Shown here: in pieces, positions 4,649-50,933 of the stretch
How positions within the stretch are numbered: position 1 is the first letter of the stretch
Layout: the number at the start of each line of letters is the position of its first letter
Virus record (IMG/VR): IMGVR_UViG_3300020451_002055
Strand: one strand, 5' to 3'
DNA: 64,000 bases
Source: a virus
Taxonomy: Duplodnaviria; Heunggongvirae; Uroviricota; Caudoviricetes
Notes under the pieces: model-generated
Seen by the model: only the letters and a program-made list of their open reading frames with translations
Databases searched by the model: none
Told to the model about the DNA's origin: nothing
Translations under genes and position numbers: made by a program

Positions 4649-5011
4649 ATGGCTTAGAATGATGTAAACCAAGAAACTCAGTACCTTTATGTGCTTGTGC
4701 GGTCTGACCTGAGTCCCGCTCAACAAGCAGTCCAAAGCTGCCATGCAGTTCTCGAAGCGGGTAACGTCTTCTACGACCCGTAGACTCAGGACCATCCACA
4801 TCTGATTATACTCTCTGTCCGCGACGAACGAGCCTTGTTCAAGGCAGCGTCGAAGCTATCCAATTCTGGCTACGATTTCAGAGAGTTCAGAGAACCTGAC
4901 ATTGGAAATGAGTTGACCGCAATCGCTTGCAGACCTGTCTGCGGCGAGAAGCGATCGTTGTTTAGTAACTACCCGCTGATGGGTAATGGTATCGTTGCGC
5001 ATTCAAAGTAA
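4649..5011 (+). CDS. Pth2-like peptidyl-tRNA hydrolase containing two in-frame TAG codons (4655-4657, 4781-4783)
   Basis: Manual translation: MA*NDVNQETQYLYVLVRSDLSPAQQAVQSCHAVLEAG...DP*TQDHPHLIILSVRDE...FREPDIGNELTAIA; VR.DL...AQ..HA is the Pth2 signature; AGGAGG SD. Confidence 0.8.
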
Positions 5012-5724: not shown

Positions 5725-7626
5725 ATGACGCAAACTTCAACCGCATATGACGGATCGTCTATCCAAGTCCTCAAAGGTCTCGAAGCTGTCCGGATGCGTC
5801 CGGGCATGTATATCGGGGACTCAGGTAAAAAGGGGCTCCATCACCTCGTATGGGAAATCGTTGACAACGCCGTCGATGAGGCGATGGCAGGTCATTGCGA
5901 TCGCATCAGTATCGAGATCGCGGAAGACGGAGAAACGGTCTCTGTTGAGGACAATGGTCGAGGCATTCCGGTTGACATGCATCCAACCGAGAAGAAACCG
6001 ACTCTCGAAGTCGTTCTGACAACGCTTCACGCAGGCGGTAAGTTTGGCGGTTCAGGATATACGGCCTCCGGCGGTCTTCATGGCGTCGGGGCGTCTTGCG
6101 TGACGGCCCTCAGCGAAAAGATGGTCGCTACCGTCTGCCGAGACAAGAGCGTCTACGAGATGACATTCTCCCGAGGCGGCGTCGTCAAACAGATGAAGAA
6201 GGTCGGCCCCATGAAGCGAGGCCAGAAGAATGGCACTCGCATCGAATGGAGAGCGGACCCGGAAATCTTCAAGGCTGGCGTTGAGCTTGATGAAAAGGTT
6301 CTTGTCAACCGACTTAGAGAAGTCGCATACCTCAACCGAGGACTGACCGTCGCCTTCGAGAACAAGAAGACGGGCACGAAGTACGAGTTCATGTTCGAGG
6401 GCGGCATCGCCGACTATGTTTCGTACCTCGTCGAAGACAAGTCCGGTCAATACCCGAGCGAACCCATCTTTATCGAGGGTCAAGAAGATGACATGAGGGT
6501 TCAGATTGCTCTCATGTATACGGAAGACGAAGACGAGACCGTACTGACCTTCTGCAACAACATCAATACCGTCGATGGCGGAACGCACCTCTCCGGATTC
6601 CGTTCAGCTTTGACCAGAGTCATCAATAACTTCTACAAGTCGGTTGGAGGCAAGAAAGACAAGGATGACAATCTCGGCGGCAACGATGTCCGAGAGGGAT
6701 TGACCGCCGTTGTCAGCGTTCTCGTTCCCCAGCCCGAACTCGTCGGACAGACAAAGGCGAAGCTCGGAACGGTCAAGGCGGAAGGCGTTACCAGTTCTGT
6801 TACCACAGAGCAGTTGACCGCTTTCTTCGAGAAGAACGCTCCGATCGTCAAGCAGATCATCGAGAGAGCAAAGCTTGCTCAGAGGGCTCGCAATGCCGCT
6901 CGCAAGTCTGCGGACATCATCAAGCGAAAGGGAGTCTTCGGGAGCAGCGGGGGTATGCCCGGTAAGCTCTACGACTGCCAGGCGAAGGATCGCAGCACGA
7001 CCGAACTCTATATCGTCGAGGGCGACTCGGCTGCCGGTTCTGCAAAGGGCGGCAGAGACGCATCGACTCAGGCGGTCATGCCTATCCGAGGTAAAATGAT
7101 CAATGCTGAGAAGCATGGAATAGCTGCTCTTCTCAAGAACAAAGAAGTAGTCGATCTCATCAAGGCCATCGGTACTGGCGTCAAAGATGATTTCGACATC
7201 GACAAGCTGAGGTACGGCAAGATCATCATTATGGCCGACGCCGATGATGACGGCTCGCACATCGCTACGCTTCTGATGACATTCTTCTTCCGCTTTATGA
7301 AGCCGCTTGTTACCGGCGGGCACCTTTATATTGCTATGCCGCCTCTCTATGTCGTTCGCAAGGGCAGTAAATCCATCTACTGCTGGAACGATAAAGACAA
7401 AGACGATGCCCTTAGCAAAATGGCAGGCGGCAAAGTGACTCGATTCAAGGGTCTTGGCGAAATGGATGAAGAACAGCTTGGAGACACGACGATGGACCCG
7501 GACAACCGGCGACTCGTTCGTCTCGAAGTCAACGATTTGGCCGAGGCTGAGAAGGTTGTTTCTGTTCTTATGGGAACGAACGTCGCTGCTCGCAAAGAAC
7601 GACTCAAAGAAAACATCAACGAGTAA
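5725..7626 (+). CDS. gyrB: DNA gyrase subunit B
   Basis: GLEAVRMRPGMYIG, EIVDNAVDE, GGLHGVG, IVEGDSA, DADDDG, RFKGLGEM. Confidence 0.97.
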   Translation: MTQTSTAYDGSSIQVLKGLEAVRMRPGMYIGDSGKKGLHHLVWEIVDNAVDEAMAGHCDRISIEIAEDGETVSVEDNGRGIPVDMHPTEKKPTLEVVLTTLHAGGKFGGSGYTASGGLHGVGASCVTALSEKMVATVCRDKSVYEMTFSRGGVVKQMKKVGPMKRGQKNGTRIEWRADPEIFKAGVELDEKVLVNRLREVAYLNRGLTVAFENKKTGTKYEFMFEGGIADYVSYLVEDKSGQYPSEPIFIEGQEDDMRVQIALMYTEDEDETVLTFCNNINTVDGGTHLSGFRSALTRVINNFYKSVGGKKDKDDNLGGNDVREGLTAVVSVLVPQPELVGQTKAKLGTVKAEGVTSSVTTEQLTAFFEKNAPIVKQIIERAKLAQRARNAARKSADIIKRKGVFGSSGGMPGKLYDCQAKDRSTTELYIVEGDSAAGSAKGGRDASTQAVMPIRGKMINAEKHGIAALLKNKEVVDLIKAIGTGVKDDFDIDKLRYGKIIIMADADDDGSHIATLLMTFFFRFMKPLVTGGHLYIAMPPLYVVRKGSKSIYCWNDKDKDDALSKMAGGKVTRFKGLGEMDEEQLGDTTMDPDNRRLVRLEVNDLAEAEKVVSVLMGTNVAARKERLKENINE

Positions 7627-41402: not shown

Positions 41403-42518
41403 ATGCGTCTAATCGCCGCCATTGTCTTTCTCATCAGTTTCATCTCTCCCGCGATTGCGCAGGAAGAGGAAGTTCAGGACAGGAGAGCCGTCAAGGTCGC
41501 TGTCTATGAATCCGACCCGTTTGTTTCAAGGGCAGACGATGACTCGCTGACCGGATACGACATCGCTCTGATCGAGCAGATCGCATTCATCAATCAATGG
41601 AACATTTCCTATGTTCAGGTTGATAGGTTCAGCGACTTGCTTGAGAGAGTCGAAGACGAAGAAGTTGACATCGCCATCTCAAGCATCACGATCACGCCCG
41701 AAAGGGAACGATCGGTCGATTTCTCTCAACCCTATATGCATACGGGTCTTGGTATCCTTGTCTCCGAAGACAGAAGCACGACGATGAGCGAAGCAATCGG
41801 CTCATGGATTTCTACCAGAGTTCCTTTGGCGGTTGATTTGCTGACGATCTGCTTCTTCTTCATCATTGCTCTGATGTTTTGGGGCATCGTTCTTTACCTG
41901 ACTGATGAACAGCGGAAAGCTGATGCGGCTGATGAAGACGGACTGACTTTCATGGAAGTGGTTCGAGGTAGCGCGGATTCGATGTGGCTTGCCTTTACAA
42001 CCGGATCGACAATCGGCTACGGCGAAGTTTACCCGAGAAAGACCGCGGCTCGAATCACCGCTGTCTTCTGCTTCTTTACGGTTGCGATTCTCGTTAGCTC
42101 GCTGACCGCAACGATCACCTCATTCAACGTTGTTCAGCAGATCAACGTCGGCATCCAAGGCGCGGGCGATCTCAAGGGCAAGACTGTCGCAACGGTCGGA
42201 GGAACGACCAGCGTTTCTTCTGCCGCGAGGTACGGAGCCAACGTCGAGACATACGACAACATTGACCAGGCAATCGCTGCTGTCATTCTCGGGAATGCTG
42301 ACGCTGTTGTCTACGACGAGCCTCGACTGCGGTACTTCGCCAACAACCAAGGCAGGAACAAGGTCCGCTTGGTTGATACGGTCTTCGAGTCGCAGGACTA
42401 CGGCATTGCGTTCGTTCAAGGCAGCAATCTGCGGGAATCCGCCAACGTCGCCCTTCTTTCCATGCAAGACAAGGGCGAGTTGTCGGAGTTCGAGCATAGT
42501 TATTTCGGAGCGCCATGA
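41403..42518 (+). CDS. GluR0-like ligand-gated potassium channel (amino-acid-binding domain + K+ pore)
   Basis: Signal peptide, SBP family 3 motifs (ITITPERERSVDFSQPY), TM-pore-TM with TIGYG filter. Confidence 0.88.
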   Translation: MRLIAAIVFLISFISPAIAQEEEVQDRRAVKVAVYESDPFVSRADDDSLTGYDIALIEQIAFINQWNISYVQVDRFSDLLERVEDEEVDIAISSITITPERERSVDFSQPYMHTGLGILVSEDRSTTMSEAIGSWISTRVPLAVDLLTICFFFIIALMFWGIVLYLTDEQRKADAADEDGLTFMEVVRGSADSMWLAFTTGSTIGYGEVYPRKTAARITAVFCFFTVAILVSSLTATITSFNVVQQINVGIQGAGDLKGKTVATVGGTTSVSSAARYGANVETYDNIDQAIAAVILGNADAVVYDEPRLRYFANNQGRNKVRLVDTVFESQDYGIAFVQGSNLRESANVALLSMQDKGELSEFEHSYFGAP

Positions 42519-45523: not shown

Positions 45524-45859
45524 TTGACCTCATGCCCTCGGTTGGGCATACGAAACGGAGTAGACTATGCGACCCGCCAACGACATCCCGAACCCCGCCA
45601 AGGGGACAGGGCCGTGCCTTGAAAAAGGCACAGTCGGCGTTGATCGCGCCTCCGTCGATAGCAGCGATCAACTCTGATACCTGCTCCCCTCCGACCAAAA
45701 ATCTGGTAAAGCTTGAAGGATTTTTCGCAGCTTTGCGTGAATCCTTACGCTACCCCTCAACTTCATGACGAAGTATAGGGACCGACGCAGCGACCTACCA
45801 ATCGCTTAGTCAGAGACAAATACTGATCAGCAGGTGAAAGCCTGGTTTGGTATATTGCA

Positions 45860-45923
45860 GTTTGGGTTGAAGAATCAAGGTTATCTTGACAATGGCTCCT
45901 TGGTTCAACTCCCTTACCCAAAC
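45860..45923 (+). ncRNA. minimal Y RNA-like element 1
   Basis: GTTTGGGT-TGA-A-GAATCAAGG-TTATC...CCTTGGTTC-AACTCC-CTT-ACCCAAAC. Confidence 0.7.
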
Positions 45924-46002: not shown

Positions 46003-46227
46003 CTTTTGAAAACTGAATAAAGGACGAAGTATGGATGCAAAGAGAGCATTGTTAGACGTAGCAGACCGGGCACTAACTCATCAGTTCATCATGTCGAAAA
46101 GACTGAAACCGGGTGAGTTCCTAGAACGGTATACTACGGCAGAAGAACGAGAAGCTTTGAAAGGCCTCAGGAGTGAGGACGCTCAAAGCCCTCTAAGACA
46201 CATGCTTGATTTGTATCGATGAACGTA

Positions 46228-46387
46228 GGAGGTTTGGGCAGTAAGTTGCGATGAGAACCGTTGCGATCCGGGGACTTGAGAGACTTACCTCTCCCCGGTC
46301 GAGACACCCCACATCGGCTGGCACGTTGCTCAACAGTTCGTTGGAAGTCGAGGTTTGGATACCTCGATAGACCAGCCTCAAACCTCC
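46228..46387 (+). ncRNA. candidate structured ncRNA
   Basis: Closing helix GGAGGTTTGGG/CTCAAACCTCC with internal hairpins; no + strand ORF in the track. Confidence 0.5.
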
Positions 46388-46605
46388 ACAACATAAGGAT
46401 CAGATGATGCTTGGAAGCCTCATTAGCAAAGACACCGAAAGGCAGATCGCCGTAGCAGTTCGAGCGGCGAGCCTCGCTAAGGCAGCAGAATCTCTCGCAG
46501 TTGCGTCATCCAATGTCGCAGCCGCAGACGAGCGTCTCGCTCAAGACCTTCGGGTCACAGTCGGTCGTTTGCATGATGAAGTCAAAAGCCTCATCTGATC
46601 CTAGA

Positions 46606-47078: not shown

Positions 47079-47138
47079 TGGGCTGAAGAGTCAAGGTTAA
47101 CTTGGTAATGTTGCACCCTTGCCTCACTAACTTGCCCA
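47079..47138 (+). ncRNA. minimal Y RNA-like element 2
   Basis: TGGGC-TGA-A-GAGTCAAGG-TTAAC...CCTTGCCTC-ACTAA-CTT-GCCCA. Confidence 0.7.
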
Positions 47139-47151
47139 GACAATCAAAGAT

Positions 47152-47222
47152 CGGACTGAAGAATAGAAGGTTAACTTCAATTTTGATTTGAAACCCAACA
47201 CCCTTCATTCACTCCTTGTCCG
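47152..47222 (+). ncRNA. minimal Y RNA-like element 3
   Basis: CGGAC-TGA-A-GAATAGAAGG-TTAAC...CCTTCATTC-ACTC-CTT-GTCCG. Confidence 0.7.
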
Positions 47223-47230
47223 TTCTTGTT

Positions 47231-47359
47231 AGCGACGTAGCTCAATTGGTAGAGCGCCTAAAAGGTCTTCAACCAACGCCTTACCCGGCACGGGTTGATG
47301 GAATTGAAGGTTATCGCATGTGGAGCGGGAGGTTGCAGGTTCGAGTCCTGTCGTCGCGA
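47231..47359 (+). ncRNA. tRNA-shaped RNA with Y-like stem in anticodon arm (A)
   Basis: Acceptor GCGACG/CGTCGC, D arm, T arm; insert CTT-ACCCG GCA CGGGT-TGA...GGTTATC. Confidence 0.8.
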
Positions 47360-47377: not shown

Positions 47378-47502
47378 CGCAACGTAGTTTAACGGCAAAA
47401 CACCTAAACATCGTTGTCCGCCCCTTACCCGATTCGGGTTGATGGAATTGACGGTTATCCTCTATCAAAGGGGTGATCCAGGTTCGAATCCTGGCGTTGC
47501 GT
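47378..47502 (+). ncRNA. tRNA-shaped RNA with Y-like stem in anticodon arm (B)
   Basis: Acceptor CGCAACG/CGTTGCG, D arm GTTT/AAAC, T arm; insert CTT-ACCCG ATT CGGGT-TGA...GGTTATC. Confidence 0.8.
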
Positions 47503-47523
47503 TTGAAAACTGAATAGACTTTT

Positions 47524-47626
47524 ACGGGTTGAATGCAATCGTTTATCGTTGGTTCAAGTCCAATCGCCGTTCTGCGGCGTAGCCCCAACTCAGGCGAGGG
47601 GCATTCGAGAGCAGTACCTTACCCGT
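47524..47626 (+). ncRNA. YrlA-type Y RNA (T arm, loop-closed acceptor stem, D arm inside terminal stem)
   Basis: ACGGGT-TGA...TTTATC-GTTGG TTCAAGT CCAAT-CGCCG TTCTG CGGCG-TA-GCCCC..GGGGC...CTT-ACCCGT. Confidence 0.8.
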
Positions 47627-47630
47627 TTTT

Positions 47631-47761
47631 CGTGCAGTAGCTCAACAGGTAGAGCGGCAGTCAAAAAGGTCCATGACCGATTTGCTTGCTCGTTTCGAGT
47701 TGAAGGTTGATGGTTATCTATCGCAAAACTGCTTGTGGAGGTTCGAGTCCTTCCTGCACGA
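47631..47761 (+). ncRNA. tRNA-shaped RNA with Y-like stem in anticodon loop (C)
   Basis: Acceptor CGTGCAG/CTGCACG, anticodon stem GCAGT/ACTGC; insert CTT-GCTCG TTT CGAGT-TGA...GGTTATC. Confidence 0.8.
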
Positions 47762-47847: not shown

Positions 47848-48109
47848 GCAGGCGATTCTGCGATCGCCGGTTAGGGTAAGATGCACGCAGCAGAAGGTTC
47901 CTAGGGATACCGAAGTGCGTCCGGCGGCAAAGAGAACGCAGAACTCTACCGTCGAGACGAGGACACATCTGCTAGAGAGCCAGGTGGGGAATCTGGTTGT
48001 AATGTTCAGAAGCATGACGAGCCGCTTGCGAGACGCAAGGGTTTCTGCAGAGATCGGACCGATCCTAGGCAAATCCTAGGGGTAGGCCCCAAACAGGAGT
48101 ATCGCCTGT
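47848..48109 (+). ncRNA. candidate large structured ncRNA (~260 nt)
   Basis: Closing helix GCAGGCGAT/ATCGCCTGT; hairpins CTTGCG AGA CGCAAG and CCTAGG CAAAT CCTAGG. Confidence 0.5.
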
Positions 48110-48340: not shown

Positions 48341-48731
48341 TTCTTACTCAGGAGACTCGCAATGGACAATACCCCATTCTACAAACGATCCGCCTTCTGG
48401 AAAGGCGTTGCGTTTGGAGTCGTTGCCGGATTCCTCTTCGTGTTCCTTGCATGAAAGTGAAGAAGTCTTCCGATATCCTATGACATCGGCTACTCCGTAA
48501 CGATCTGCAACGCGGAGGTGCAAGCGAGGCTGAGGTAATCAGGAGGAACCTCGCTTGTAAAAGTCGCTGATTTGATTGAAGGTGCAGACAGTTGCTCGGC
48601 TAGGGACGCCTAAGTCGCCATCGGATGAAAGGGCCGGAAGCAGCTTTTCGTGAATCAGTAATGCTGGTTCTTAGTTGTTGACGAAACGACTGTAGCGACC
48701 TACCAATCGCTGCACATTTTGGGATTGAGCA

Positions 48732-49244
48732 ATGCTGCTCGACAGTCTTAGGCCAACTCAATGCGGTCTTCGATACGTTGATCAGATTGCAAGCATGGTC
48801 GAGTTTGTCCGATCAGGCGGTGTCTTCTCGCAAGAAGCTCTGCTGAGGTTTGCGGAGGCAAACAATCATGAGCCGGACAACCTCATTCAGGTTCGTCGGT
48901 TTGAGGATGGGACTCACTTTATCCATGACGGGCACCATAGATGCCTTTCGATCTGGCTTGCCGGACGAGAGAACCTTGATGCCCAAGAATTTGATTTGTC
49001 TATCTGGCATTACCACCAGTATGGAGAGATCAACTTTGATGCGGGTTATGTGACACCACATGACCCGAGAGAAGAAACCCGATACGCCGACTTCTTTGGA
49101 TTCAAGTCGGAAGCTCGGAAGATTGCAGAAACTTCGGTCGAAGAAGCGATCGAGTTCATCAGAGGAAACAGGTCTCGTTACTGCGAGCCGCGGACCTGTT
49201 GGCATGTAAGAGATTTGGCCGCAACCTTGCCTCTAAGAGGCTGA
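48732..49244 (+). CDS. ParB/Srx-like domain protein
   Basis: LRPTQ ... FIHDGHHR motif. Confidence 0.7.
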   Translation: MLLDSLRPTQCGLRYVDQIASMVEFVRSGGVFSQEALLRFAEANNHEPDNLIQVRRFEDGTHFIHDGHHRCLSIWLAGRENLDAQEFDLSIWHYHQYGEINFDAGYVTPHDPREETRYADFFGFKSEARKIAETSVEEAIEFIRGNRSRYCEPRTCWHVRDLAATLPLRG

Positions 49245-49262: not shown

Positions 49263-50933
49263 ATGGCATACACGAAGCACTTCAGCGCAAAGAAGACCCC
49301 GCAGAACGTCCCGACTCCGGGGAAGAACCAGAAGAAGAACAACGCGGGCGGTTACGTCTATGAGATCACTCCTTGGGATCGCTTGCAGCGATTCCTGATC
49401 CTAGGCTCCGAGGGCGGCTCGTACTACGTCGGCGAGCGTAAGCTCACCGTCGATAACGCGAACTGCGTAATCGATTGCCTCAAGGAGGACGGTCGTCGCG
49501 TCGTGGACATGATCGTGGAGATTTCGGATGCGGGTCGCGCCGCTAAGAACACTCCGGCTCTGTTCGCGCTGGCTCTCGCTGCATCGGCGGATGAGCTTGA
49601 GACCCGCAAGTACGCGCTCGCAAACCTCTCGAAGGTTGCGCGTATCGGTACTCACCTCTTCGAGTTCGCGCAGTTCGTCAACCAGTTCCGTGGTTGGGGT
49701 CGTAACCTCAAGGAGTCGATCGCTAACTGGTACCTTGACATGGACGCAGAGCGTCTGGCCTACCAGGTCGTCAAGTACCCGCAGCGCACGACCGAGGAGG
49801 GCGACAGCCTGTCGGTATGGTCGCACCGCGACCTGCTCCGTAAGGTCCGCCCGAGCAACGTCAAGGGAGATCACAACAAGATCTTCGGCTATGTAACTCA
49901 GGGATGGGACACCATCCCGAGCCGTAGCCCGAAGGCTTTGCAGATCATCCGCGGAACCGAGAAGATCAAGCGAGCAAAGAGCGCAGATGAGGCCGCAGGT
50001 CTCATCGAGGAGTTCTCGTTGCCGCACGAGGTTGTTCCGAAGGAGTTCTCGGGAGATCCGAAGGTTCTCACCGCCCTCCTGCAGAGCATGCCGTTGACTG
50101 CGACGATGCGTAACCTTGGTCGCTTGACCGCGCGAGGCGTTCTTGTCCCGATGGGCAAGGAGACCTCGATGGTTATCGATCGCCTGACGGATGAGGACTA
50201 CATCCGCAAGAGCAGGATCCACCCGATCAACGTTCTTGCGGCTCTGAAGACCTACTCGCAGGGCTCAGGTCACCGCGGAAGCATGTCTTGGCAGCCGATT
50301 CAGCCGATCGTCGATGCTCTCGACTCGATGCTCTACAAGAGCTTCGGGAACATCGAGCCGACCGGCAAGAAGATTCTCATTGCCCTCGATGTTTCGGCGT
50401 CGATGGACTGGGACGGCTGCTCGGGCTTGAGCCAGATTACTCCGCGCGAGGCTTCGGCTGTCATGTCCATGGCAACCGCTCGCGTTGAGAAGAACTACCA
50501 CATCGTCGCTTTCTCAAGCGGCGGTTGGTCGAGAGGCTCGGGCCGTAGTCGCTACGGTTGGGGCTCGGGTATCCAGGATGTGGCGATCTCGCCTCGTCAG
50601 CGTTTGGACTCGGTAGTTAGCACCGTTTCTAGCCTGCCAGCAGGCGGAACCGACTGCGCTTTGCCGATGCTCTACGCTACCGAGAAGGGAATGGACATCG
50701 ACGCATTCGTTGTCTACACGGACAACGATACCTGGGCAGGAGACATCCACGCGGATCAGGCACTCAGAGAGTACCGCCGAAAGTTCAACCCGGAGGCGAA
50801 GCTCATTGTTGCCGGAACCGCATCGACCGAGTTCTCGATCGCTGACCCGAGCGATCCGGGCATGCTCGATGTTGTCGGATTCGACTCGTCGGCTCCGAGC
50901 GTCATCTCCTCGTTCATTCGAGGCATGGACTAA
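49263..50933 (+). CDS. rsr: Ro60 (TROVE + vWA) RNA-binding protein
   Basis: NNAGGYVY, RLQRFLILGSEGGSYY, WSHRDLLR, RNLGR, SRIHP, MIDAS DVSASM, GGTDC, YTDNDTW, MLDVVGFDS. Confidence 0.96.
   Translation: MAYTKHFSAKKTPQNVPTPGKNQKKNNAGGYVYEITPWDRLQRFLILGSEGGSYYVGERKLTVDNANCVIDCLKEDGRRVVDMIVEISDAGRAAKNTPALFALALAASADELETRKYALANLSKVARIGTHLFEFAQFVNQFRGWGRNLKESIANWYLDMDAERLAYQVVKYPQRTTEEGDSLSVWSHRDLLRKVRPSNVKGDHNKIFGYVTQGWDTIPSRSPKALQIIRGTEKIKRAKSADEAAGLIEEFSLPHEVVPKEFSGDPKVLTALLQSMPLTATMRNLGRLTARGVLVPMGKETSMVIDRLTDEDYIRKSRIHPINVLAALKTYSQGSGHRGSMSWQPIQPIVDALDSMLYKSFGNIEPTGKKILIALDVSASMDWDGCSGLSQITPREASAVMSMATARVEKNYHIVAFSSGGWSRGSGRSRYGWGSGIQDVAISPRQRLDSVVSTVSSLPAGGTDCALPMLYATEKGMDIDAFVVYTDNDTWAGDIHADQALREYRRKFNPEAKLIVAGTASTEFSIADPSDPGMLDVVGFDSSAPSVISSFIRGMD

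What the first reader, a model, noticed from the sequence alone, without database searches (positions are those of the whole stretch)
47378..47626. Adjacent circular permutants: YrlA-type RNA next to its tRNA-topology version
Seen: element 47524-47626 opens at the stem (ACGGGT...ACCCGT) and contains T arm, then acceptor stem closed by a loop (CGCCG TTCTG CGGCG), then D arm. Its neighbour 47378-47502 has the identical CCTTACCCG and CGGGTTGA strands joined by a loop and opens at the acceptor stem instead. They are the same fold cut at different points. Inference: a tandem array of tRNA-hosted units provides a direct route (3' part of unit n plus 5' part of unit n+1) for the origin of YrlA from tRNA.
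Basis: partly seen in the sequence, partly recalled or inferred. Interest (0 to 1): 0.82.

Follow-up and report, generated by a model that had tools for sequence, protein, structure and literature searches.

The report
tRNA-shaped Y RNA beside permuted YrlA
Upstream of a phage Ro60 gene lie small RNA genes built from the same parts in two chain orders: a known YrlA-type Y RNA, and next to it a version with ordinary tRNA ends that I found described in no paper I could read but that is common beside Ro60 genes in phages and bacteria.

Summary
47524-47626 is a divergent YrlA-type Y RNA: it aligns end to end with Rfam YrlA at 27.6 bits, below the curated cut-off. 47378-47502 is a complete tRNA-like cloverleaf whose anticodon side carries the same bulged Ro60-type helix, closed by a 3-nt loop. 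A Ro60 gene lies 1.6 kb downstream. Only rotations of one element that cut in or just past its acceptor-like hairpin align with the other.

The tRNA-ended form is a real class. A model built from it finds 36 copies in phage contigs and 56 in bacterial Ro60 loci. About 97% of the cells of the proposed pairs (one sequence at one pair) form pairs, and 22-23 of 27 pairs show compensatory changes. In three whole genomes it occurs only at the Ro60 locus.

The evolutionary reading is only partly supported.
- The route through a tRNA dimer is already a published model.
- This window's YrlA-type element is an old lineage, not a product of its neighbours.
- The direction of conversion cannot be told from adjacency.

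Earlier notes of this scan report the same design on other DNA. I class it as a new variant of a known kind.

The parts
47378..47502 (+). U2: Y RNA with tRNA topology. Acceptor 47378-84/47495-501; D arm 47387-401; linker 47402-10; second-helix strands 47411-16 and 47449-54; Ro60-type bulged helix 47423-31/47435-42 closed by ATT; GGTTATC 47453-59; hairpin with 7-nt loop 47458-72; variable loop 47473-77; T arm 47478-94.
   Evidence: Scores 116 bits with model R1, but it is one of the training sequences. Covariation in homologues.
47524..47626 (+). U3: YrlA-type (permuted) Y RNA. The Ro60-type helix is formed by the two chain ends (47524-32 with 47619-26). Then come the T arm 47548-64, the loop-closed acceptor-like hairpin 47565-79 and the D-like arm 47582-602.
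   Evidence: Rfam YrlA full-length alignment, 27.6 bits. Minimum-free-energy fold gives the same helices. Orthologues in L061, L064 and L065.
47231..47359 (+). U1: second tRNA-topology Y RNA, a paralogue of U2. The two share 25 nt at 96% identity. Acceptor stem pairs 6 of 7.
   Evidence: Orthologue at L064 4063-4188.
47631..47761 (+). U4: tRNA-topology Y RNA of a second sub-type. A 5-bp anticodon stem is kept and the module (CTTGCTCG-TTT-CGAGTTGA) replaces the anticodon loop.
   Evidence: Rfam tRNA 49.4 bits with a 65-nt insert. R1 99.5 bits. Orthologues in L061, L063 and L065.
45860..45923 (+). Ya: plain Y-like hairpin (GGGTTGA with CTTACCC). It ends 5 nt before tRNA-Pro.
   Evidence: Orthologues in L061, L063, L064, L066 and L067.
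47079..47138 (+). Yb: plain Y-like hairpin (GGGCTGA with CTTGCCC).
47152..47222 (+). Yc: plain Y-like hairpin (GGACTGA with CTTGTCC). It ends 8 nt before U1.
49263..50933 (+). Ro60 (TROVE plus vWA_Ro60) gene, the presumed protein partner.
   Evidence: Pfam PF25045 at 1.3e-58 and PF05731 at 2.3e-30.
48732..49244 (+). ParB-like gene directly upstream of Ro60. It is syntenic in most close relatives; its role is unknown.
   Evidence: Weak Pfam ParBc_2 match, E 0.0068, below the cut-off. Synteny.

Best explanation
The two elements belong to an array of seven Y RNA genes that serve a large phage's Ro60 protein. All seven carry the same bulged helix (NNNN-Y-GA paired with UU-NNNN, the Y RNA Ro60-binding design), followed by a second helix and a G(G/U)UUAUC motif.

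U3 is a YrlA-type Y RNA. Its chain ends form the Ro60 helix and its acceptor-like stem is closed by a loop. U2, with U1 and U4, is the unpermuted counterpart: a tRNA-like cloverleaf with free acceptor ends and the Ro60 helix closed by a 3-nt loop on the anticodon side.

Shown here: the sequences, the folds with covariation, the permutation relation and the tight linkage to Ro60 genes.

Inferred:
1. Ro60 binds the bulged helix.
2. The array is one transcript. RNase P and the tRNA 3'-end enzymes cut out the tRNA-shaped units, and those cuts also set the ends of the plain and YrlA-type RNAs that lie 4-13 nt from the neighbouring element.
3. The tRNA-like body is the effector-tethering module, as proposed for YrlA. 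In the tRNA-ended form its acceptor end is free for CCA addition.
For: - A Ro60 gene lies 1.6 kb downstream. The same array sits in synteny in seven related contigs.
- The helix covaries between copies: GGGU/ACCC, GGGC/GCCC, GGAC/GUCC, GAGU/GCUC.
- U3 aligns full length to Rfam YrlA.
- Model R1 gives tRNA-ended units 91-123 bits and ordinary tRNAs at most 52.
- Independent hits of 56-85 bits occur in 18 of 80 viral Ro60 loci, and of 56-99 bits in 38 of 80 bacterial Ro60 loci.
- Covariation: 97.0% and 97.7% of cells paired, against 35-50% when partners are slid; 23 and 22 of 27 pairs have changes on both sides.
- The tRNA elbow nucleotides are invariant: U8, A14, G18 and the T loop.
- In three whole genomes every hit of 66 bits or more lies at the Ro60 locus. 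None of 97 TROVE-negative genomes of one phylum has a hit.
- No promoter-like site lies on the + strand. The terminator-like sites inside the array are tRNA-type arms.
Against: - No RNA ends, expression or Ro60 binding were measured.
- U3 is far below Rfam's cut-off.
- In this window the bulged base is U, where the published motif GNCGAA has C.
- R1 was trained on the window's own clade, so scores there are circular. Only the viral and bacterial hits outside it are independent.
- Eight cultured phages gave only weak long hits of 25-38 bits.
- The promoter and terminator scan is a crude consensus test.
Confidence: 0.78

Rival explanations
1. U1, U2 and U4 are working tRNA genes interrupted by an intervening sequence. 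It is removed to give decoding tRNAs.
For: Deleting 47403-47457 from U2 leaves a near-normal cloverleaf with a 4-bp stem and a 7-nt loop that has U at loop position 2 and a purine at position 6. U4 passes Rfam's tRNA cut-off.
Against: - Loop sequences differ between orthologues: AUC, GCU and UGU in the middle, and one loop of 8 nt.
- Some bacterial copies have 6-nt loops or lack the U.
- ARAGORN calls none of the three. The Rfam tRNA model misses U1 and U2 even at E up to 10.
- The insert is itself conserved, covaries, and occurs only beside Ro60.
- To my knowledge, bacteria have no splicing pathway for such an insert.
Confidence: 0.06
2. U3 arose recently in this phage lineage from the 3' part of one tRNA-ended unit and the 5' part of the next. 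This is the literal 'direct route' at this locus.
For: The U1-U2 junction matches the Rfam YrlA core at 23.4 bits. U1's 3' acceptor strand pairs with U2's 5' strand at 6 of 7 positions. The Ro-helix strands are identical in U2 and U3.
Against: - BLAST finds no U3 match to U1, U2 or U4.
- U3's T stem is GTTGG/CCAAT, unlike those of its neighbours.
- 22 nt of U3 are identical to a verrucomicrobial YrlA.
- Orthologous U3 copies exist in L061, L064 and L065.
- The half-profiles match U3 only weakly.
Confidence: 0.04
3. The polarity is the reverse. tRNA-ended Y RNAs arose from tandem YrlA genes by the same duplicate-and-trim route, and regained open acceptor ends.
For: Tandem YrlA copies in L186 are read by R1 as tRNA-ended units at about 46 bits. 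Both forms are widespread in many phyla.
Against: tRNA-ended units keep canonical tRNA features: a 7-bp acceptor stem, U8, a 4-bp D stem and a 5-nt variable loop. Direct descent from tRNA explains these more simply.
Confidence: 0.25
4. The tRNA-ended units are decaying tRNA pseudogenes that hold a chance hairpin.
For: tRNA finders do not call them.
Against: There are 92 copies with compensatory changes in all five helices, invariant elbow nucleotides and exclusive linkage to Ro60.
Confidence: 0.01

Closest known systems
YrlA (Y RNA-like A; Rfam RF02553; Chen et al. 2014, PMC4201824; structure 6CU1, Wang et al. 2018)
   Same: It is encoded beside Ro60. It has a GNCGAA-type bulged helix and a tRNA-like domain with T arm, acceptor stem and D arm. 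U3 has exactly this chain order.
   Different: U2, U1 and U4 have the opposite chain order. Their ends lie at a 7-bp acceptor stem, the Ro60 helix is closed by a loop, and an extra anticodon-like hairpin or a kept anticodon stem is present. U3 scores 27.6 bits against the cut-off of 69.
[quoted passage not shown] 2014)
   Same: It is a Y RNA whose acceptor stem is opened and carries a tRNA-like 3' end.
   Different: There the opening is made by processing and yields two fragments. Here the open acceptor is encoded and the RNA would be a single chain.
Dimeric-tRNA origin model for YrlA (Sim and Wolin 2018, as cited in 10.1101/312249)
   Same: The same route: T arm from unit n, D arm from unit n+1.
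   Different: In that model the Ro60 stem forms from left-over tRNA parts. Here each unit already carries both strands of the helix, so a junction would deliver a ready-made stem.
Circularly permuted tRNA genes of algae and one archaeon (Soma et al. 2007, cited), and, from my own knowledge, two-piece permuted tmRNA
   Same: They are natural circular permutations of a tRNA-type fold.
   Different: Those are processed back into working tRNA or tmRNA. Here both orders appear to be end products and partners of Ro60.

Membership tests
YrlA (RF02553) | Encoded next to a Ro60/TROVE gene | tested here: met
   Ro60 gene at 49263-50933 on the same strand.
YrlA (RF02553) | Chain order: stem 5' strand, T arm, loop-closed acceptor stem, D arm, stem 3' strand | tested here: met
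   Met by U3 47524-47626. Not met by U2 47378-47502, whose order is acceptor, D arm, module, T arm, acceptor.
YrlA (RF02553) | Score at or above Rfam's gathering cut-off (69 bits) | tested here: not met
   U3 scores 27.6 bits. It gives no hit when the whole window is scanned.
YrlA (RF02553) | GNCGAA-type motif in the Ro60-binding strand | tested here: inconclusive
   The window has GGGUUGAA, with U where the motif has C. Relatives have GGGUCGAA or GAGCCGAA.
YrlA / Y RNA | Bound by Ro60 | not testable with these tools
   Needs co-immunoprecipitation or a gel-shift assay.
tRNA (RF00005) | Cloverleaf with 7-bp acceptor stem, D arm, T arm and elbow nucleotides | tested here: met
   Shown for U2 and its homologues.
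tRNA (RF00005) | Rfam gathering score (29 bits), or a call by ARAGORN | tested here: not met
   U1 and U2 give no tRNA hit at E up to 10. ARAGORN calls none of U1, U2 or U4. Only U4 passes, at 49.4 bits with a 65-nt insert.
tRNA (RF00005) | An anticodon kept among orthologues | tested here: not met
   Loops differ among U2 orthologues, and U4-type units have no anticodon loop.

The most novel reading that the evidence does not exclude
tRNA-ended Y RNAs are the ancestral form from which YrlA-type Y RNAs arose. They are also functionally distinct: their free acceptor end receives CCA, and perhaps an amino acid. That would let Ro60 be tethered to tRNA-handling or tRNA-repair enzymes during infection, or let the RNAs act as decoys for host anticodon nucleases.
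Probability: 0.25. Interest if true: 0.85.

Novelty: new variant of a known kind. Interest (0 to 1): 0.66.

Why it matters
Y RNAs and Ro60 form a conserved RNA-surveillance particle found from bacteria to humans. The partner of YrlA's tRNA-like domain is still unknown, and the origin of YrlA from tRNA is a hypothesis.

A second, widespread class keeps normal tRNA ends and often sits in tandem and beside YrlA. It offers three things:
- the missing unpermuted form for the origin model;
- a natural experiment on whether chain topology matters for Ro60 function;
- a reason why earlier searches, which discarded hits overlapping tandem tRNA genes, may have missed Y RNAs in some phyla.

It also suggests that genome annotation misses or mislabels these genes. 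One example is a 209-nt 'tRNA-OTHER' pseudogene upstream of Ro60 in Rhodococcus phage Trina.

Tried and rejected
- Scanning viral contigs for CTTACCCG-N3-6-CGGGTTGA gave 60 loci. All were chance hits in coding DNA.
- The search for related loci with the single Ro60 protein found nothing. An alignment was needed.
- No whole genome is held for the window.
- Rfam YrlA at its gathering score finds nothing in the window, in the relatives or in eight cultured phages.
- MAFFT put the second helix out of register in several rows. I used alignments fitted to the model instead, which lean towards the model's structure.
- The reviews Sim and Wolin 2018 and Sim et al. 2020 are not held. The supplements of Chen 2014 are not held either.
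- I considered and rejected three readings: a tRNA intron, a pseudogene, and recent local origin of U3 (see the rival explanations).
- Permuted sequences could not be scored with covariance models, because Infernal is not in the script box and the tools take only held sequence. Half-profile HMMs and a rotation scan served instead.

Full report
**What is there.** The window looks like part of a large phage. It carries T4-type topoisomerase II subunits and NAD-salvage genes, nearly all genes of the first 50 kb lie on one strand, and there are 14 tRNA genes. Close relatives of its Ro60 lie on contigs of 252 and 467 kb.

At 49263-50933 it encodes a Ro60 protein (TROVE plus vWA_Ro60). The 3 kb upstream hold an RNA array. 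Seven elements in it share a bulged helix of the form NNNN-Y-GA paired with UU-NNNN. That is the design of the Ro60-binding helix of Y RNAs, and the four variable pairs covary between copies. A second helix and G(G/U)UUAUC follow.
- Three are plain hairpins: 45860-45923, 47079-47138 and 47152-47222.
- Three have tRNA ends: U1 47231-47359, U2 47378-47502 and U4 47631-47761.
- One has the YrlA order: U3 47524-47626.

**Checking the observation.** The quoted strings are in place and far above chance. U3 aligns to Rfam YrlA over the whole model at 27.6 bits, well below the cut-off of 69. Its minimum-free-energy fold gives the same helices.

U2 has a perfect 7-bp acceptor stem, a D arm, a T arm and the helix CCTTACCCG-ATT-CGGGTTGA. 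ARAGORN does not call it, and the Rfam tRNA model misses it at E up to 10.

**Is the tRNA-ended fold real?** I fetched Ro60 homologues of 61-77% identity together with their DNA. The array is syntenic in them: NAMPT, two genes, the RNAs, in most a ParB-like gene, then Ro60. Sixteen tRNA-ended units from eight loci have 7/7 acceptor stems with many different sequences. RNAalifold recovers the acceptor, D, T and Ro helices.

A covariance model, R1, scores these units at 91-123 bits and ordinary tRNAs at 52 bits or less. Outside the training clade it finds units of 106-203 nt (most of 118-140 nt) at 56-85 bits in 18 of 80 viral Ro60 loci, and at 56-99 bits in 38 of 80 bacterial Ro60 loci. The bacterial ones often stand two to four in tandem.

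| Set | Sequences | Cells paired | When partners are slid | Pairs changed on both sides |
|---|---|---|---|---|
| Phage contigs | 36 | 97.0% | 35-45% | 23 of 27 |
| Bacterial loci | 56 | 97.7% | 39-50% | 22 of 27 |

These alignments are fitted to the model, which favours it somewhat. U8, A14, G18 and the T-loop nucleotides are invariant, which fits a tRNA elbow.

**Anatomy.** There are two sub-types.
- In U1/U2-like units the module sits between the D arm and a short hairpin of 3-4 bp with a loop that is usually 7 nt long. That hairpin overlaps UUAUC and covaries (CCU/AGG, CGC/GCG, CUU/AAG, CCA/UGG, CGA/UCG). A 5-nt variable loop follows.
- In U4-like units a 5-bp anticodon stem is kept, with five different complementary versions, and the module replaces the loop.

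The hairpin loops differ among orthologues, so these RNAs do not look like decoders.

**Permutation.** Rotating U3 at its acceptor-like loop lifts its alignment to U1, U2 and U4 from z about 0 to z of 3.7-5.6. The best rotations cut in or just past that hairpin.

Profiles of the two halves of tRNA-ended units match YrlA-type units in swapped order, with E of 1e-7 to 1e-13 for L105, L107, L110, L128 and two elements of L147. Several of these also share the GCUWAAAC linker, the extra hairpin and the variable loop. The window's U3 matches only weakly.

**Linkage to Ro60.** In three whole bacterial genomes every hit of 66 bits or more lies at the Ro60 locus. In 101 genomes of one phylum, none of the 97 without TROVE has a hit. 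Both topologies occur together in the window, L061, L064, L065, L097/98 and several bacterial loci such as L162, L170, L171 and L187.

**Evolution.** YrlA as a circularly permuted tRNA, and its origin from tRNA dimers, are both published. This locus shows the raw material: tandem tRNA-ended units, a U1-U2 junction that hits the YrlA model, and cross-unit acceptor pairing at 6 of 7 positions.

U3 itself is old. It shares 22 identical bases with a verrucomicrobial YrlA and has no BLAST match to its neighbours. Tandem YrlA arrays mimic tRNA-ended units just as well, so polarity stays open.

**Mechanism (inferred).** Ro60 binds the bulged helix. No promoter-like site lies on the + strand, and the terminator-like sites inside the array are tRNA-type arms, so one transcript is likely. 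RNase P and the 3'-end enzymes would then release the tRNA-shaped units. The same cuts would trim the neighbouring Y RNAs, which lie 4-13 nt from the next element. No unit encodes CCA, and neither do the window's tRNA-Pro genes.

**Novelty.** Five literature searches found no description of a tRNA-ended Y RNA. Two reviews could not be read. No Rfam family reaches its curated cut-off on U1 or U2. Chen et al. discarded hits that overlapped tandem tRNA genes. Earlier notes of this scan report the same design on other DNA, and my results agree with them.

Noticed in passing
window 45790-45805 and 48695-48710: An identical 16-nt hairpin, GCGACCTACCAATCGC, brackets the RNA array. Chance expects 0 copies. 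Near-identical copies sit at the same two places in L061 and L064-L067.
   Followed up: partly
window 46011, 46882, 47366, 47508: The spacer motif TTGAAAACTGAATA follows tRNA-Pro, U1 and U2 and precedes another RNA-like stretch. There are 5 copies where chance expects 0.35. Variants recur in the related arrays. It may be a processing or regulatory signal.
   Followed up: partly
window about 46225-46395: A stretch closed by GGAGGTTTGG...CAAACCTCC, with an inner GATCCGGGGACTTGAGAG...CTCTCCCCGG hairpin, is conserved in L061, L064, L066 and L067. It has no Rfam match.
   Followed up: no
window 47849-48108: A GC-rich structured stretch lies between tRNA-Met and tRNA-Asp. It is partly conserved in L061 (about 4830-4930) and has no Rfam match.
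   Followed up: no
window 48732-49244: A ParB-like gene sits directly upstream of Ro60 in this clade. No RtcB or RtcA gene turned up among the ten ORFs around the locus that I scanned with Pfam.
   Followed up: partly
L061 4187-4271: An 85-nt tRNA-like element occupies the place of U1. It has a 7-bp acceptor stem and a T arm but a long palindromic anticodon-side arm.
   Followed up: no
L068 1154-2284: A T4 Rnl1-type RNA ligase gene lies 4 kb upstream of Ro60 in a more distant phage. That phage has a tRNA-ended Y RNA immediately before Ro60 (5851-5973).
   Followed up: no
L156 3643-3851; L151 3707-3843; L152 3602-3745: Cultured actinophages Trina, Cashline and Dandelion have divergent long tRNA-like elements just upstream of Ro60. 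They carry GGTTAYC and a larger loop on the Ro helix. They are either not annotated or labelled 'tRNA-OTHER' pseudogene.
   Followed up: partly
L064 about 4860-4985: A further Y-like RNA whose helix (GCGAGTCGA with CTTACTCGC) is formed by its chain ends. It has a T arm but no clear D arm.
   Followed up: no
window 41403-42518: The phage encodes a glutamate-receptor-type ligand-gated ion channel. NAMPT and a weak, cut-off-level NMNAT-like (cytidylyltransferase-type) gene follow.
   Followed up: no
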